From assembly GCA_965197645.1 (NCBI GenBank), contig OZ240219.1:1184001-1248000 (forward strand): DNA of 64,000 nucleotides, read 5' to 3'. Positions 15,747 to 20,262 of this stretch are shown here, one piece after another. The DNA is from Dehalococcoidia bacterium. GTDB taxonomy: Bacteria > Chloroflexota > Dehalococcoidia > Plut-88900. Position 1 is the first letter of the stretch; every line of letters starts with the position of its first letter. Position numbers and translations under genes: made by a program. Under the pieces are notes generated by a model. It saw only the letters and a program-made list of their open reading frames with translations. It made no database searches and had not been told where the DNA came from.

Positions 15747-17141
15747 TTAAAGCTCGGCCCCCAGCATAGCCAGGTCCAGGTAGTTGATCACCCCGTCCCC
15801 GTTCAAATCGATCTCCGCTGCGTAACCCGAGTCTCCGGACCCAGTGCCGTAGGCCCCTTGAAGCACGGCTAGATCATCGCGGTCCACCGAGCCGTCGCGG
15901 TTTAGGTCACCGGTGATGATGGTTTCCGGCGTGTCCGGGACCACCGGGGTGGGCGTGCGCGCTCCCAGGGGCACCAGGGTCGGTATGGGAGTAGCCGTCG
16001 CTAGGTCTTCCACCACCTCTCGCTCGGGGAGTAGGGGCAAGCCGATGCTGGACCGCCACCGATTGTCCAGGCCGACCCGATCGAAGCCGTAGACCTGGAC
16101 CAATACGTCGTCCATATTCCCATAGCCGTCCCTGAAAGTCCTGAGCAGCTCGGCCATCTTTCCAGGGCCGTACTCGTCGATCATAAACTCTACGATCGCC
16201 CGAGCCTGGCCATAGAAGAGGATGGTCTCGTCGGGGGTGCCGGGCTGGTTGTTCATGCCTGTGATGGGAAGCAGGCGACCGGTCCTGACGTTTTCCAGGA
16301 GAGCAAGGTCGTAGGAGTAGCTGGGCTCCAGGTTACCGTACTCGGCCAGTCCTTCGTTGAGCCAGTCGGGCACCCGGCGACCGGGGCCCTCGGCGGCCTG
16401 GGCAACCAGCAGATGGGTGACCTCATGGGAGGTAGTGCCGCGGATTTGGGAAGTGAAGCCCATAATCAGAAGGATTCCCTCGCTGCCGTAGGCCTGTCCC
16501 AGCGTCACGAGGCCGCTCTGCGCCGTGTTGCTGGTAAAGGGAAGGGCCGCCTGCATCTGCAGCGGATTGTTGTATATCATTATCCTGATCGGATCGGTCA
16601 ACTCGGTCTGGAGCACGGCGCCCATTCGGCTGAGGGTCTCTATGGAGGTGTCCAGAATCGTCTGGGCCCGGGTGTTGGTTGGCCCGTAGTAGTAGGTGGA
16701 GACCAAGCCTTCTGTCAGGACCTCCCATTCGAACCGGGTGTCCAGGTAGATGAACTCGACGGGATCGGTCTCTACCCGGTTGCCTTCCGCGTCCTGGAAA
16801 ATCCATCGGTATTCGAATCCAGCGCCGTTGGGTATGAACAGGCTCCCTGAGCCGCCCCGGGTCTCCAGGATGTACTCCGCCCTCATCGGGTCGCCTTCTA
16901 TCAGGGTGGCTGGTTCATTGCGGAGGATCTCCCTTCCGATGATCCCAAAGGAGATGGTGACGCTCTCCACGGGCCGGTCGCTGGCAAACTCTACGTAGAA
17001 GGACAGGGTTTCGGGGAAATTGATCTCGTGGCGAACGTCCGCCTCGGTTATCCACTCGTCAGCACTCGTCGGCGCTGCGGCGGTGGCGAAGATCAGTGCT
17101 GCGAGGACGGACACAGCTATTGTGGATACTAAGCGAGACAT
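15747..17141 (-). CDS. Secreted peptidase MA-like zinc metallopeptidase with C-terminal dockerin
   Basis: Signal peptide; HEVTH plus WLNEGLAEY (gluzincin); Pro/Thr linker; two Ca-loop repeats GDLNRDGSVDRDDL and IDLNGDGVINYLDL. Confidence 0.88.
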   Translation of the reverse strand: MSRLVSTIAVSVLAALIFATAAAPTSADEWITEADVRHEINFPETLSFYVEFASDRPVESVTISFGIIGREILRNEPATLIEGDPMRAEYILETRGGSGSLFIPNGAGFEYRWIFQDAEGNRVETDPVEFIYLDTRFEWEVLTEGLVSTYYYGPTNTRAQTILDTSIETLSRMGAVLQTELTDPIRIMIYNNPLQMQAALPFTSNTAQSGLVTLGQAYGSEGILLIMGFTSQIRGTTSHEVTHLLVAQAAEGPGRRVPDWLNEGLAEYGNLEPSYSYDLALLENVRTGRLLPITGMNNQPGTPDETILFYGQARAIVEFMIDEYGPGKMAELLRTFRDGYGNMDDVLVQVYGFDRVGLDNRWRSSIGLPLLPEREVVEDLATATPIPTLVPLGARTPTPVVPDTPETIITGDLNRDGSVDRDDLAVLQGAYGTGSGDSGYAAEIDLNGDGVINYLDLAMLGAEL

Positions 17142-17201
17142 CTAGCTTGGCGAAACTGGGCGCGTTGACACCAGAATCCTATCACGATGAGGGAAGGGGA
17201 A

Positions 17202-18605
17202 TCATTCCTCAGACTCGGGCAGCCTGAACCCGCCGGCCCCTTCCACAGCGAAATAATCCAGCATGGCTATACCCAGGCGGGCGGCGTTGCCCAACAGGTC
17301 CTGGTCTATGTGCTCCAAGGTGTCCTCGGGGGTGTGGATGCGAGAGAGATCTGTGCCTGCGAAGTACATGGCTGGGATTCCGACCGCCAGAAACACGGCG
17401 TGATCACTGGCAAGACCGCGGGGTTGCTGCCCTTCGTAGGCGTCCAGCCCCAGGTCCGTCGCCAAGGTAAGGCCCTGAGCCACCAGCCCGGGATCTCCTC
17501 CCAGCTGAAGCTCCCCCGAGCCTACGGCATCAAAGTTCAGCATCGCCCTGATGCTGGACCTCCCGCCCAGTGGAGATAGGGAATTTACCCAGTTCGCACT
17601 GCCCAGCAGGCCGATCTCCTCCGAGCCGAAGGCGATGAAGTGGATGGAGTAGGGGATGGTATCCACCTTTGTGGTCTCCTGGGCCAGGGCCAACAGTATA
17701 CCAATGCCCGAGCCATTATCGTTGGCGCCGTCCACGTCCGCTACCGTGTCCATGTGAGCGCCCACGACGACTGTGTTGAACCCGGAGACTATCCTGGAGG
17801 CCACCACGTTTCGGCTGGGGGTCGGGAAGCGGAGCAGCCTGACGTCGAGGACCACATCCCCCTCTTCAAGCATCTCCACCAGACGCTCTCCGTCAGCCCG
17901 GGAGATGGTCAACGATGGGATCTCGGCGGGAGAAGAGAGGGTGGCGTACAGCTCCGCCTCTTCGTTGTTGTAGATGATGGCCGCCGAGGCGCCGGCGTTC
18001 TGCGCGTTCTGGACCTTGTCCTCAAAGAACAGGACTCCCCTCTGTATCAACGCGATCTTCCCTTCGAGGCCTTCTTCGGGGTAGGCTTCCGGCTCGCCAA
18101 AGCCGACGTGGACTATCGAAGCGGTGGTCTCTCCCGTGCCGCTCAGATGGACGAAACGAGACACGATGGTCTCTTCCACCGGGCTGGAGATGGTGATAAA
18201 AGGCTCAGTCGTATCGTACCTCTGGACCGTGAACTCCTGTATCTCGATGTCGTAGCCCAGAGCGGTTAGCTCGGCAGCTATGAAGTCGGCGGCAGCCTCT
18301 TCCTGGGCGGAGGCGGACTCCCTTGCGCCCAGCGCCTCCACGAATCGCTGAGTATAGGAGTAGGCTAATTCACCCAGGTTATCGGAGGGGCTGAATATGG
18401 GGTCTGTAGGCGTGGGTTCGGGCGTGGCCTGAGGCGTCGGGACGGGAGTAAAGGTAGGAGAGGGTGTGTCGGCGGAAGGAACCTCCGTAGCTTGTACGGC
18501 GGCCTCTCCCGTCGGCGTTGGAGTATCAGCCGAGTCCCGTATCCTACAGGCCGAGCCTATGACCAGGAGAACCAGGACTATGTATATCAGGTGATGCTTC
18601 TTCAA
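17202..18605 (-). CDS. M28 aminopeptidase with PA domain, lipoprotein
   Basis: Lipobox GSA-C, PT-rich linker, PA domain (GKIALIQRG..F.DKV.NA..AGA), GAHMD, GANDNGSG, SEEIGLLGS, SDH, IHT.ED. Confidence 0.93.
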   Translation of the reverse strand: MKKHHLIYIVLVLLVIGSACRIRDSADTPTPTGEAAVQATEVPSADTPSPTFTPVPTPQATPEPTPTDPIFSPSDNLGELAYSYTQRFVEALGARESASAQEEAAADFIAAELTALGYDIEIQEFTVQRYDTTEPFITISSPVEETIVSRFVHLSGTGETTASIVHVGFGEPEAYPEEGLEGKIALIQRGVLFFEDKVQNAQNAGASAAIIYNNEEAELYATLSSPAEIPSLTISRADGERLVEMLEEGDVVLDVRLLRFPTPSRNVVASRIVSGFNTVVVGAHMDTVADVDGANDNGSGIGILLALAQETTKVDTIPYSIHFIAFGSEEIGLLGSANWVNSLSPLGGRSSIRAMLNFDAVGSGELQLGGDPGLVAQGLTLATDLGLDAYEGQQPRGLASDHAVFLAVGIPAMYFAGTDLSRIHTPEDTLEHIDQDLLGNAARLGIAMLDYFAVEGAGGFRLPESEE

Positions 18606-18712
18606 AGGACTTTTACGTGGGGCGCAGTCGTACTACGCCGCGATGGGTTGGTACATTGTAAAACGGGGGAACGGGTTAAAGGTTGCCGTAGCGAGAAACG
18701 GAGGGTTGGGCT

Positions 18713-19150
18713 CTATCTCTTTTTTGGTTTGGCAGGACCTCGCTGAGACTTTCGCTCGGCGCCCGCGTATTTCTCTTCGGGGAAGAGGTCCTCGCCAGGC
18801 CCGCCGCCCTCGCCTAGGGCGCTGCTAACGGCCTCTTCTCCCTCTTCCATCCTGCGAAGAAACTCTTCGCTCACGAAGAACATTCAGATGCAAAATCCGT
18901 CCCGAGCTATGTCCTCGTGGTGCCTTTCGCAAGGGCATATCTTCATGCGATCCCGGTCCGGGTCGCCCTCCACGATCATTCAGGGACAGTACCGGTATCC
19001 GTGCTTTACCTCGTTCTTCGCCAGGCCCTTCTGTACCTCGTCCACGATCTCCGGGTCCGAGTAGAACTTGTAACCGCTCTTCTGAACGTACTTTTCGGAC
19101 ATTTTGACGGCACCGGCTAAGGCTTGTTCGAAGGTCTTCTGTTTCTTCAA
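18713..19150 (-). CDS. Ferredoxin:thioredoxin reductase catalytic subunit-like protein, predicted selenoprotein with two Sec (not in ORF track)
   Basis: GGAGA SD plus TTG start; MKKQKTFEQALAGAVKMSEKYVQKSGYKFYSDPEIVDEVQKGLAKNEVKHGYRYCP(U)MIVEGDPDRDRMKICPCERHHEDIARDGFCI(U)MFFVSEEFLRRMEE...PKKR*; TGA at 18982-18980 and 18886-18884; 145 aa on read-through. Confidence 0.88.
18854..18870 (-). promoter_or_regulatory. Candidate bacterial SECIS hairpin 2
   Basis: GCGAAGA-GTT-TCTTCGC, a perfect 7-bp stem, begins 13 nt after the second in-frame UGA; the loop starts with G. Confidence 0.65.
18947..18966 (-). promoter_or_regulatory. Candidate bacterial SECIS hairpin 1
   Basis: GCGA-CCCG-GAC-CGGG-A-TCGC begins 13 nt after the first in-frame UGA; the loop starts with G. 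Confidence 0.65.
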
Positions 19151-19299
19151 TCGGCTCTCCTAGCTGGCTGTGAGGGGTCATAGTTAGTATAACATAGGAG
19201 GTTGTATCCAATCGGCTCGATAGCATGGCGTTGATGTGGAGGTTATAATCGCATCTGGCGTCCCGGCCTGCACGCCATCTTTAACAGACTAATGAAATA

Positions 19300-19455
19300 T
19301 GGGGTGTGCAGAGGGCCGAAGCCCATTTATTGGGAGTGCCTGCCGGGGGCCGGGAGTCTGAGATCCTGCCCTGAGCTCGCTTAAGGGGTGTCCCTCAGAA
19401 ATGATTTTCTGTACCCTCCTGGCTAGGAAGGGGGCCAGGGGGATGGGGTCGAAAG
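19300..19455 (+). repeat. Intergenic repeat family A, copy with 24-nt insert
   Basis: GGGGTGTGCAGAGGG..GAAGCCC...GGGAGTCTGAG[ATCCTGCCCTGAGCTCGCTTAAGG]GGTGTCCCTCAGA...AGGAAGGGGGCCAGGGGGATGG. Confidence 0.8.
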
Positions 19456-19491
19456 AGGTTTATTAGCACCTTACTGAATCATGACTGAATC

Positions 19492-20262
19492 ATGGCCAGA
19501 AACGTTATAGAACAGTTCGGCGAACATGCCGACGACTACTACCGCAGCAAGTACCATTCCCAGGGCGGCGACCTCAACAAGCTGGTCGAACTGGCGTCTC
19601 CAGAGACCCACGAGACGGCCCTGGACATGGCTACGGGCGCCGGCCATACCGCTTTCGCCGTGGCGAAGCGGGCCGGACGGGTCATAGCAAGCGACTTGAC
19701 GGCGCCGATGATCCAACGAGCACGAAAGGCCGCCCACGATGAGGGCATCACCAACGTCGAGTTCCTGCTGTGCGACGCCCACGCCATCCCCTACTCCGAC
19801 GAGACCCTGGATATCGTGACCTGCCGTGCGGCGCCCCACCACTTCAAAGACGTCCGCCTGTTTGTCAGAGAGGCGTGGCGAGTGACCAGGCCGGGAGGCC
19901 GCATGGTCGTCATCGATGGAGCGGCGCCCGAGGACCCGGGCCTGCACGAGTACCTGGACCACCTGGAGGTGGTACGAGACCCGAGTCACAACCGCCGTCT
20001 ATCCCTTTCCGAATGGAGGGACGCGTTCCGAGACGCAGGCTTCCAGCTGGACGTCAGCTATCTGGAGGACGATATCTACGACTTCGATGACTGGGTGATT
20101 CGCTCCGGCGTAACTCCGAAGACCCGCGGGCTCTTGGAAGGAATGATTATCGACGCCACCCCCGAGCAGCACCGCTACTTCCGGTTCGATATCCAGGACG
20201 GGAAGGTGATAAGCTTGCGAAACGATCGGGCGGTGGTGCTCGGGCGCAAGCCCAGACCGTAA
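19492..20262 (+). CDS. Class I SAM-dependent methyltransferase (UbiE/YafE-like)
   Basis: [29 protein letters not shown]. Confidence 0.9.

What the first reader, a model, noticed from the sequence alone, without database searches (positions are those of the whole stretch)
18854..18982. Two matching SECIS-like hairpins, each exactly 13 nt after a UGA
Seen: UGA1 is followed by ATGATCGTGGAGG (13 nt) then GCGA-CCCG-GAC-CGGG-A-TCGC. UGA2 is followed by ATGTTCTTCGTGA (13 nt) then GCGAAGA-GTT-TCTTCGC. The two share spacing, the GCGA/TCGC base, a small loop starting with G, and a TGA-ATG context, despite unrelated amino-acid sequence. Established: bacterial SECIS elements lie in the coding region just 3' of the UGA and have a G-containing apical loop bound by SelB. 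Inference: this is a lineage-specific SECIS signature that independently supports recoding and could be used to find other selenoproteins in the genome.
Basis: partly seen in the sequence, partly recalled or inferred. Interest (0 to 1): 0.8.

Follow-up and report, generated by a model that had tools for sequence, protein, structure and literature searches.

The report
Two SECIS hairpins, known FtrB selenoprotein
The two hairpins are real, conserved selenocysteine-insertion signals inside a gene for an already catalogued iron-sulfur reductase with two selenocysteines, so the finding is correct but ordinary, and the proposed genome-wide signature does not hold.

Summary
On the minus strand, UGA1 (18982-18980) and UGA2 (18886-18884) are each followed by 13 nt and then a hairpin: 18966-18947 (8 bp, 1 bulge, GAC loop, -10.2 kcal/mol) and 18870-18854 (7 bp, GUU loop, -7.7 kcal/mol).

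They lie in a 145-aa gene (18713-19150, minus strand). It scores 212 bits against the 160-bit cut-off of NCBIfam NF041072, "FtrB family double-selenoprotein" (motifs CPU...CPC...CIU). The genome has tRNA-Sec, selA, selB and selD.

Both hairpins meet every sequence-level constraint of the published bacterial SECIS model. They sit at the same position in about 99 distinct homologues.

- Synonymous codons inside them are nearly frozen, often on otherwise rare codons (CTT 76/76, AGC 76/76; normalised entropy 0.13 vs 0.53, p = 1e-5).
- A few lineages rebuild the stems with different letters.
- In a single-Sec relative, the hairpin follows the UGA site but not the Cys site.

The "lineage-specific signature" part fails. 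TGA-N13-GCGA-N7-14-TCGC occurs 11 times in the genome, against 9-16 in simulations, and only the two FtrB sites fold well. None of 16 other candidate selenoprotein genes here has the GCGA/UCGC base.

The family and its double Sec were published in 2008. Verdict: already known, low interest.

The parts
18713..19150 (-). FtrB-family double-selenoprotein gene: 145 aa, TTG start at 19150-19148, TAG stop at 18715-18713. Motifs CPU(57)...CPC...CIU(89).
   Evidence: ORF read with TGA=U. PF02943, 4.3e-23. NF041072, 212.2 bits against a 160-bit cut-off; alignment to solved FTR-like chains puts U57 and U89 on the second Cys of CPC and of CxC.
19155..19160 (-). GGAGAG, a Shine-Dalgarno-like stretch 4 nt before the TTG start.
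   Evidence: Read directly. Inference only.
18980..18982 (-). UGA1, Sec codon 57.
   Evidence: TGA at this site in 81 of 81 fetched homologous loci and in all 34 genome matches over the cut-off.
18967..18979 (-). 13-nt spacer between UGA1 and SECIS 1.
   Evidence: Same length across alignment A2.
18947..18966 (-). SECIS 1 hairpin GCGACCCG-GAC-CGGG(A)UCGC: 8 bp, one bulged A, loop starts 21 nt after UGA.
   Evidence: -10.2 kcal/mol; it is the MFE when 9-12 nt after the UGA are masked; a hairpin at the same place in 97 of 99 distinct family sequences.
18884..18886 (-). UGA2, Sec codon 89.
   Evidence: TGA in 80 of 81 loci (L125 has TAA). All 34 genome matches have it.
18871..18883 (-). 13-nt spacer between UGA2 and SECIS 2.
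18854..18870 (-). SECIS 2 hairpin GCGAAGA-GUU-UCUUCGC: 7 bp, loop starts 20 nt after UGA.
   Evidence: -7.7 kcal/mol; in the MFE, pair probabilities 0.66-0.91; helix 3 is 98.5% paired in 75 sequences; 94 of 99 sequences compliant.
18875..18880 (-). 5' arm (UUCUUC) of an optional lower stem around SECIS 2.
   Evidence: -12.3 kcal/mol with the lower stem; helix 2 is 88.4% paired, all variation one-sided (U-A/U-G, C-G/U-G). Weak evidence. This arm would lie inside the ribosome when UGA2 is decoded (inference).
18842..18847 (-). 3' arm (GAAGAG) of the optional lower stem around SECIS 2.

Best explanation
The two hairpins are ordinary bacterial SECIS elements, one for each of two in-frame UGA codons, in a gene for an FtrB-family (ferredoxin:thioredoxin-reductase catalytic subunit-like) double selenoprotein.

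Inferred mechanism: when the ribosome reaches each UGA, the first roughly 12 nt downstream lie in the mRNA channel. The hairpin that starts 13 nt after the UGA presents a G-first triloop 20-21 nt downstream. That loop recruits SelB-GTP-Sec-tRNA(Sec), and Sec is inserted instead of termination.

The product carries Sec at both positions that are the redox-active Cys pair in classical FTR. That pairing is stated for this family in PMC2398784; the FTR residue numbering is recalled. The protein keeps the four Cys of CPx / CPC / Cxx that bind the [4Fe-4S] cluster (a recalled role).

Shown here: the sequence, the reading frame, family membership, the Sec machinery, and RNA-level conservation. Inferred: SelB binding, actual read-through, and a Se-Se redox couple.
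For: (1) Gene identity. PF02943 at 4.3e-23. NF041072 'FtrB_double_U' equivalog at 212.2 bits against a 160-bit cut-off.

(2) Sec machinery in the same genome. tRNA-Sec at 66.4 bits with anticodon tca. selB at 346.8 bits. selA at 547.7 bits. selD at 379.7 bits, itself with one in-frame TGA.

(3) Both UGAs are conserved.
- 80 of 81 fetched MAG/metagenome loci have TGA at both sites. L125 has TAA at site 2.
- All 34 of 401 same-class genomes over the cut-off have '2 TGA', including 11 of 11 other genomes of the same family.

(4) Both hairpins meet the bSECIS constraints quoted in PMC13188914. Loops are 3 nt, stems 8 and 7 bp, G is in loop position 1, spacing is 21 and 20 nt, and dG is -10.2 and -7.7.

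(5) Conservation of place. Of 99 distinct family sequences, 97 (site 1) and 94 (site 2) have a compliant hairpin. The loop starts at 20-21 nt in 94 (site 1) and at 19-20 nt in 93 (site 2).

(6) RNA-level selection.
- Normalised synonymous entropy is 0.13 in 11 hairpin codons against 0.53 in 51 other conserved codons (Mann-Whitney p = 1.2e-5).
- Otherwise disfavoured codons are fixed: Leu CTT 76/76, Ser AGC 76/76, Asp GAT 73/76 and 75/76, Glu GAA 72/76, Tyr TAT 44/44.
- 93.5% of cells are paired, against 41-56% when partners are slid by 1-3 columns.

(7) Stems are rebuilt with other letters.
- L173 and L174 make hairpin 2 as CGGAGG-AGUU-CCUCCG (Ser UCG, Leu CUC).
- L166, L168 and L169 make hairpin 1 as CGAUCCG-GAUC-UGGAUCG.
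- The window's own clade uses CCCG/CGGG plus a bulge where most sequences have UCCU/AGGA.

(8) Natural Sec/Cys contrast.
- In the single-Sec relative L016 (CPU...CPC...CRC), the site-1 hairpin CGAUCC/GGAUCG is kept and starts 14 nt after the UGA, i.e. the family position without the first base pair. No hairpin loop lies closer than 38 nt after the Cys codon at site 2.
- In 23 distant all-Cys paralogues, compliant hairpins follow 3 of 23 (site 1) and 8 of 23 (site 2) Cys codons, at scattered positions.

Against: - No experiment has been done; read-through and SelB binding are inferred.
- In the 75-sequence alignment there is no pair with a change on both sides. The observed measures do not exceed the column-shuffle control. 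Classical covariation statistics are therefore silent, and support rests on synonymous-site freezing and a few rebuilt stems.
- Hairpin 1 is not the MFE of the free mRNA in the window (pair probabilities 0.03-0.59).
- Single-sequence z-scores are weak (-0.89 and -1.79).
- The bSECIS model is permissive in this GC-rich genome: 217 of 600 random Cys codons pass it.
- Hairpin 2 alone only just passes the energy threshold (-7.7 against -7.5).
- The homologues are related, so the counts are not independent events.
- The Sec/Cys contrast rests on two genomes of one genus, and the peptide after site 2 differs there.
- No close orthologue with Cys at either site could be examined as DNA.
Confidence: 0.9

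Rival explanations
1. The shared module (13-nt spacer, same codon phase, GCGA/UCGC closing helix, G-first triloop, UGA-AUG) is a lineage-specific SECIS signature recognised by this organism's SelB.
For: - Both sites share these features in the window, and most of the family keeps them: pairs 26-45 to 29-42 and 122-138 to 125-135 are nearly invariant in 75 sequences.
- The DsbA-like gene of the same genome also has a 13-nt spacer.
- The single-Sec relative L016 keeps CGAUCC/GGAUCG at the same position after its UGA.
Against: - The literal pattern gives 11 hits in 3.2 Mb on both strands, against 9, 16 and 12 in three 3rd-order Markov simulations. Only the two FtrB sites fold below -7 kcal/mol.
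- 0 of 16 other candidate Sec sites in this genome have GCGA/UCGC or UGA-AUG. Their spacers to the core stem run from about 9 to 20 nt, and their loops start 17-30 nt after UGA.
- L173 and L174 replace the base of hairpin 2. L016 has a G-G mismatch at the base of hairpin 1.
- In known SelB-SECIS complexes the apical loop, not the helix base, is contacted (recalled, not tested).
Confidence: 0.06
2. The hairpins are by-products of conserved amino-acid sequence (GDPxxDR and SEEFLR) and have no RNA function. UGA decoding does not depend on them.
For: The peptides encoded by the hairpins are highly conserved. No pair changes on both sides in the 75-sequence alignment.
Against: - Amino-acid conservation cannot explain frozen third positions on rare codons.
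- It cannot explain stems rebuilt in a different register when the peptide or codons change.
- It cannot explain loss of any nearby hairpin after the Cys codon in L016.
Confidence: 0.03
3. The TGAs are not Sec codons. The gene would be a pseudogene, a sequencing artefact, or read with TGA=Trp.
For: Public gene calls give W at both sites or truncate the protein there. One locus has TAA at site 2 (L125).
Against: - The same two positions carry TGA in 80 of 81 loci and 34 of 34 genomes.
- They align with the catalytic Cys of solved FTR-like proteins.
- The genome has the full Sec machinery.
- TGA also ends ordinary genes here. For example, it separates an SDR gene from an enoyl-CoA hydratase gene, and an LLM oxidoreductase gene from a hydrolase gene.
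Confidence: 0.01

Closest known systems
Bacterial SECIS element (bSECIS consensus model of bSECISearch, as summarised in PMC13188914, passages read)
   Same: A stem-loop in the coding region just 3' of an in-frame UGA. It has a 3-nt apical loop with G first (GAC; GUU matches the G[G|U] preference). Stems are 8 and 7 bp. There are 21 and 20 nt between UGA and the loop. dG is -10.2 and -7.7 kcal/mol.
   Different: Nothing structural. Within this protein family the two elements are unusually fixed in sequence, and they share a 13-nt spacer and a GCGA/UCGC base, which the general model does not require. For comparison, the E. coli fdhF minimal element is recalled to sit 11 nt after UGA (from memory, not tested).
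FtrB family double-selenoprotein (NCBIfam NF041072). FTR selenoprotein first reported from the GOS metagenome (PMC2398784, passages read). Listed with motif CxU and 2 Sec in PMC13188914 and as CxU in PMC9312934.
   Same: Scores over the equivalog cut-off. Has two Sec at the positions of the two redox-active Cys, and keeps CPx...CPC...Cxx. The 2008 paper also states that candidate SECIS elements were predicted for an FTR read (legend of its Figure 7).
   Different: This copy comes from a complete-looking 3.2-Mb Chloroflexota-type genome rather than a marine read. It has a roughly 40-residue acidic/basic C-terminal tail. I could not see the 2008 figure or its Dataset S2 (figures are not held, supplements are closed), so I cannot say whether their predicted hairpins are the same ones.
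Classical and FTR-like solved proteins: 4tpu_A (deposited name 'Rubredoxin'), 7pwe_A, and plant/cyanobacterial FTR catalytic chains 7bzk_A, 1dj7_A, 2pu9_A
   Same: Same fold family by sequence (E = 6.6e-14 to 6e-4). The CPC...CPC...CxC spacing aligns residue for residue.
   Different: All solved relatives have Cys at both sites. They also lack the conserved GDPxxDR and MFFVSEEFLR peptides that encode the two hairpins.
SelL (UxxU) diselenide selenoproteins of aquatic eukaryotes (cited as reference 40 in PMC2398784; only the reference line was seen)
   Same: Two Sec are predicted to form a redox-active Se-Se couple.
   Different: SelL is eukaryotic, has a thioredoxin fold, and its two Sec are 2 residues apart and served by a 3'-UTR SECIS. 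Here the two Sec are 32 residues apart, lie next to an Fe-S site, and each has its own in-frame bacterial SECIS.

Membership tests
Bacterial SECIS (bSECIS model) | Stem-loop in the coding sequence immediately 3' of an in-frame UGA | tested here: met
   both hairpins start 13 nt after an in-frame TGA in one ORF.
Bacterial SECIS (bSECIS model) | Apical loop of 3-9 nt on an upper stem of 4-16 bp | tested here: met
   loops GAC and GUU (3 nt); stems of 8 bp (one bulge) and 7 bp.
Bacterial SECIS (bSECIS model) | At least one G in the first two loop positions | tested here: met
   G is loop position 1 at both sites; the family loops are GAUG, GAG, GAC, GAUC, GUA, GUU, or G in position 2 (CGUGGA, AGUU).
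Bacterial SECIS (bSECIS model) | 16-37 nt between UGA and the apical loop | tested here: met
   21 nt (site 1) and 20 nt (site 2).
Bacterial SECIS (bSECIS model) | Minimum free energy <= -7.5 kcal/mol | tested here: met
   -10.2 and -7.7 kcal/mol. Site 2 is borderline alone and reaches -12.3 with the lower stem.
Bacterial SECIS (bSECIS model) | Binds SelB and is required for Sec insertion at the upstream UGA | not testable with these tools
   Needs a reporter or binding assay. Indirect support only.
FtrB family double-selenoprotein (NF041072) | Scores above the curated equivalog cut-off | tested here: met
   212.2 bits against 160, over profile positions 1-121 of 121; 202 bits from the genome search.
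FtrB family double-selenoprotein (NF041072) | Two in-frame UGA at the positions of the redox-active Cys pair, with the other four Cys kept | tested here: met
   (CPU...CPC...CIU). (U57 and U89 align with the second Cys of CPC and of CYC in 4tpu_A and 7pwe_A). That these are the redox-active pair is taken from PMC2398784 and from memory of the FTR structures.
FtrB family double-selenoprotein (NF041072) | Host has the Sec-decoding trait (selA, selB, selD, tRNA-Sec) | tested here: met
   11 hits against 9, 16 and 12 in simulations, of which only the two FtrB sites fold well; 0 of 16 other candidate Sec sites have the GCGA/UCGC base.

The most novel reading that the evidence does not exclude
The two SECIS elements of this family may be a matched pair for a reason. 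They share the same codon phase, the same 13-nt spacer and the same GCGA/UCGC closing helix, and these features are held fixed across class-level divergence. This could reflect duplication of a SECIS module when the second Sec was acquired. It could also reflect a family-specific requirement of double recoding within 96 nt, for example equal unwinding or pausing geometry so that both UGAs are decoded efficiently on one short mRNA.

The evidence does not exclude this. The two hairpins are far more alike than either is to the hairpins of the 16 other candidate Sec genes in the genome. The single-Sec relative carries only the site-1 version.
Probability: 0.07. Interest if true: 0.45.

Novelty: already known. 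Interest (0 to 1): 0.2.

Why it matters
The finding does not change what is known. Sec-containing FTR homologues with two Sec at the redox-active positions were reported in 2008. The family has a curated NCBIfam model, and the hairpins fit the standard bacterial SECIS model.

The useful outcomes are practical.

1. Many public gene calls for this family are wrong. They give W at both sites or truncate at the first or second TGA. The two frozen hairpins are a reliable local marker for correct annotation of this family.
2. The test of the "signature" idea is a clean negative. A SECIS motif taken from one gene does not generalise, even within the same genome.
3. The host genome is selenoprotein-rich, with at least about 15 further candidates. 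It would be a good system for testing whether an Fe-S-adjacent Se-Se couple really forms.

Tried and rejected
- **Literal signature scan.** I scanned the whole genome for TGA-N13-GCGA-N7-14-TCGC. The count is at chance level, so it is rejected as a selenoprotein finder.
- **Classical covariation.** On 75 aligned homologues there are 0 pairs with a change on both sides, and the observed values do not exceed the shuffles. This is uninformative because the hairpins are nearly invariant in that set. I used synonymous-site entropy and more distant genomes instead.
- **Rfam scan of the window.** Only two tRNAs were found. No SECIS family matched at gathering threshold.
- **Close orthologues with Cys at either site.** None was found in 401 phylum-sampled genomes, 401 class-sampled genomes, one genome-contig scan (1 relative found) or 80 kept of 219 metagenome matches. 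The Sec-versus-Cys test could therefore only be done on a single-Sec subfamily (L016, L017) and on 23 distant all-Cys paralogues.
- **Selenoprotein candidate screen.** A codon-usage screen of 47,882 in-frame TGAs gave 421 candidates. I picked 20 of them by eye for NCBIfam. Four were rejected: L129 and L141 are two adjacent genes separated by a real TGA stop, and L142 and L145 have no family. The output was cut in the middle, so candidates of intermediate score were not all seen and the list is not exhaustive.
- **Regex misses.** In one search my regular expression matched 27 of the 29 new loci. L165 and L172 were not examined further.
- **Gene neighbourhood.** The neighbours are peptidases M28 and MA, a methyltransferase and ThiD. 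No thioredoxin or ferredoxin is adjacent, so there is no operon clue.
- **Promoter and terminator scan.** Nothing was found in 18550-19500.
- **Not tried.** I did not build a covariance model of the FtrB SECIS, run structure or complex prediction, or look at sequencing reads. None would change the verdict.
Full report
**What is there**

The coordinates 18854-18982 lie on the minus strand inside one reading frame, 18713-19150. Read with TGA as Sec, the frame gives a 145-residue protein with the motifs YCPU(57)M...ICPC...FCIU(89)M. It starts at a TTG preceded by GGAGAG and ends at TAG.

- Site 1: GCGACCCG-GAC-CGGG(A)UCGC at 18966-18947.
- Site 2: GCGAAGA-GUU-UCUUCGC at 18870-18854.

Folded alone, the hairpins give -10.2 and -7.7 kcal/mol.

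**How much the single sequence shows**

- Hairpin 2 is part of the MFE, with pair probabilities of 0.66-0.91.
- Hairpin 1 competes with a GAUC/GAUC alternative in the free mRNA. Its pair probabilities are 0.03-0.59, and it is not in the MFE of the 53-, 60- or 160-nt pieces.
- Hairpin 1 becomes the MFE once the 9-12 nt after UGA1 are masked. That is the situation expected when a ribosome sits on the UGA (inference).
- Shuffle z-scores are weak (-0.89 and -1.79).
- The published bSECIS model is permissive in this 60.8% GC genome. 217 of 600 random in-frame Cys codons are followed by a compliant hairpin.
- Only 12 of 600 have as best hairpin a G-first 3-4-nt loop starting 19-22 nt downstream.

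From this window alone the pair of hairpins is suggestive, not decisive.

**What the gene is**

- Pfam gives PF02943, the FTR catalytic beta chain (4.3e-23).
- NCBIfam gives NF041072, "FtrB family double-selenoprotein", an equivalog model, at 212.2 bits against a cut-off of 160.
- Against solved structures, the best matches are FTR-like chains 4tpu_A and 7pwe_A (E about 1e-13) and the classical FTR catalytic chains.
- In those alignments U57 and U89 fall on the second Cys of CPC and of CYC.
- The residue numbering of the Synechocystis enzyme and the assignment of the other four Cys to the [4Fe-4S] cluster are from my memory.

**The host can decode Sec**

The window's genome is 3.21 Mb in one contig. 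It has:

- tRNA-Sec;
- selB;
- selA;
- selD that itself contains one in-frame TGA.

**Comparative evidence**

I fetched one MAG locus (80% identical, titled Chloroflexota), 80 metagenome loci and 29 genome loci from the same class.

- Of the 81 MAG/metagenome loci, 80 have TGA at both sites. L125 has TAA at site 2, and L121 has YYPU instead of YCPU.
- In the class sample, 34 of 401 genomes score over the family cut-off, and all 34 show two TGAs. All 11 other genomes of the window's family have the gene.
- In a phylum-wide sample, only the window's genome passed the cut-off, 1 of 401.
- Across 99 distinct sequences, a bSECIS-compliant hairpin is present at site 1 in 97 and at site 2 in 94. The loop starts at 20-21 nt (94 sequences) and at 19-20 nt (93 sequences) after the UGA.

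**Is the conservation at the RNA level?**

The standard covariation count says nothing. In 75 aligned sequences no pair changes on both sides, and the observed values do not beat the shuffles. However, 93.5% of cells pair, against 41-56% when partners are slid.

The informative signal is at synonymous sites.

- Normalised codon entropy is 0.13 for the 11 conserved codons inside the hairpins and 0.53 for 51 conserved codons outside (Mann-Whitney p = 1.2e-5).
- The frozen codons are often the ones these genes otherwise avoid.
- Leu CTT is 76/76 in hairpin 2. At the four other Leu columns, CTT appears only in one (5 sequences).
- Ser AGC is 76/76.
- Asp GAT is 73/76 and 75/76, while Asp elsewhere is GAC 72/75 and 50/76.
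- Glu GAA is 72/76, Tyr TAT 44/44, and Arg CGC 74/75 and 74/76.

More distant genomes add real structural substitutions.

- L173 and L174 build hairpin 2 as CGGAGG-AGUU-CCUCCG, with Ser UCG and Leu CUC.
- L166, L168 and L169 build hairpin 1 as CGAUCCG-GAUC-UGGAUCG.
- The window's own clade has CCCG/CGGG plus a bulged A where the majority has UCCU/AGGA.

**Does the hairpin track Sec rather than Cys?**

No close orthologue with Cys could be obtained as DNA. Two substitutes were available.

- A single-Sec subfamily (L016 and L017, two genomes of one genus; CPU...CPC...CRC, fused to glutaredoxin-like domains) keeps a CGAUCC/GGAUCG hairpin. It starts 14 nt after its UGA, which is the family position without the first base pair. 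No hairpin loop lies nearer than 38 nt after the Cys codon at site 2 in L016 (37 nt after the TGG codon at that position in L017), and none is G-first.
- In 23 distant all-Cys paralogues, compliant hairpins follow 3 (site 1) and 8 (site 2) of the Cys codons, at scattered positions. This is about the background rate.

**The "lineage-specific signature"**

The pattern TGA-N13-GCGA-N7-14-TCGC occurs 11 times on both strands of the genome. It occurs 9, 16 and 12 times in three Markov simulations. Apart from the two FtrB sites, the hits fold at -1.5 to -6.3 kcal/mol, mostly in short frames.

To see what real Sec sites look like here, I screened in-frame TGAs by codon usage on both sides. I tested 20 picked candidates against NCBIfam. 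Sixteen have homology that fits a read-through protein:

- SelD;
- a DsbA-like UPWC protein (the family match covers only the C-terminal part);
- a DUF1989/urea-amidolyase-associated-like protein;
- a ResA/Prx-like WUDGC protein;
- three UGSC-family proteins;
- a CoA-transferase-like protein (weak match);
- an OsmC-like protein;
- a thioredoxin-NHL protein;
- a peroxiredoxin;
- a rhodanese/mercaptopyruvate sulfurtransferase;
- two GrdB-family proteins;
- a zinc alcohol dehydrogenase with GVUHSD;
- an AhpD-like protein.

Their best hairpins have 5-8-bp cores. Nine of the 16 have G-first loops of 3-4 nt (GUA, GAG, GUGG, GUG, GUU, GGC, GCAC, GGA, GGC, GGC). Loops start 17-30 nt after UGA, and spacers to the core stem are about 9-20 nt.

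None has the GCGA/UCGC base or an AUG after the UGA. One (UGSC_b) lacks a G in the first two loop positions. The ADH has no compliant hairpin at all.

What this genome's Sec sites share is therefore the generic bSECIS model (constraints quoted from PMC13188914), which both FtrB hairpins meet. The features common to the two FtrB hairpins are a property of this gene family.

**Why the two FtrB hairpins resemble each other**

This is unexplained. Both begin at the second base of codon +5 (xGC GAx) and end in an Arg CGC codon. The resemblance could be coincidence under codon constraints, convergence on a strong closing helix at a fixed distance, or a copied module. L173, L174 and L016 show that the base is not obligatory.

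**Comparison with what is known**

One full-text search ("ferredoxin-thioredoxin reductase" + selenoprotein + selenocysteine) returned three papers. I read passages only.

- PMC2398784 (2008) reports FTR catalytic-subunit homologues as a new selenoprotein family. One read has two Sec at the redox-active positions, and SECIS elements were predicted for it (legend of its Figure 7).
- PMC9312934 (2022) lists the family with motif CxU.

I could not see the figures or supplements. I therefore cannot say whether the published hairpins are identical to these.

**Verdict**

The core interpretation (SECIS elements supporting recoding) is well supported. The extension (a lineage signature for finding other selenoproteins) is not. 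The feature belongs to an already described and curated family, so novelty is "already known" and interest is low.

Noticed in passing
L126-L128, L130-L140, L143, L144 (all in G000, outside the window): The host genome looks selenoprotein-rich. Sixteen further in-frame-TGA genes have homology consistent with read-through: SelD, DsbA-like, DUF1989-like, ResA/Prx-like, 3 UGSC, CoA-transferase-like, OsmC-like, Trx-NHL, Prx, rhodanese/MST, 2 GrdB-family, ADH and AhpD-like. The screen was not exhaustive, because the output was cut and the 20 tested candidates were picked by eye.
   Followed up: partly
L143 (G000:C1:2857718-2858809, minus strand): A zinc-type alcohol dehydrogenase (TIGR03989, 4.8e-94) has TGA where the catalytic-zinc Cys of the GVCHSD motif would be (GVUHSD). 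No bSECIS-compliant hairpin follows it; the best is -3.7 kcal/mol. It is either an unusual Sec site or a broken gene.
   Followed up: partly
L016 (minus strand) and L017, around the match given: This is a single-Sec FTR subfamily (CPU...CPC...CRC) fused to two glutaredoxin-like repeats (WCPRS, WCHDV). It keeps the family's hairpin-1 core (CGAUCC/GGAUCG) at the family position after its UGA. L017 additionally has TAG upstream and TGG in place of the last Cys codon.
   Followed up: partly
L042 (G348:C7, match 88346-88624): A distant FTR-like paralogue has a single TGA at the second redox position (YCHULLF) and a GGUC-loop hairpin whose loop starts 21 nt downstream. Sec use seems to have arisen, or been kept, in more than one branch of the FTR superfamily.
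   Followed up: no
L125 site 2; L121 site 1: L125 has TAA instead of TGA at site 2 with the hairpin intact, so it is a truncating mutation or a sequencing error. L121 has Tyr in place of the first cluster Cys (YYPU).
   Followed up: no
P0002-P0015: Public gene calls for this family are mostly wrong. Nine proteins carry W at both Sec positions (called with TGA=Trp). Two stop after CI, and these have CPC at site 1. Three stop after YCP and carry a spurious N-terminal extension.
   Followed up: partly
window 18842-18847 with 18875-18880 (minus strand): A possible 6-bp lower stem (UUCUUC/GARGAG) brackets SECIS 2 and is 88% paired across 75 homologues, with only one-sided changes. It starts 3 nt after UGA2, so it would be melted during decoding. 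Its meaning is unclear.
   Followed up: partly
window 15747-18605 (minus strand): Two secreted-looking peptidase genes lie downstream of ftrB. One is Peptidase_MA_2 with a dockerin domain, and the other is PA plus Peptidase_M28. They are unrelated to the finding.
   Followed up: no
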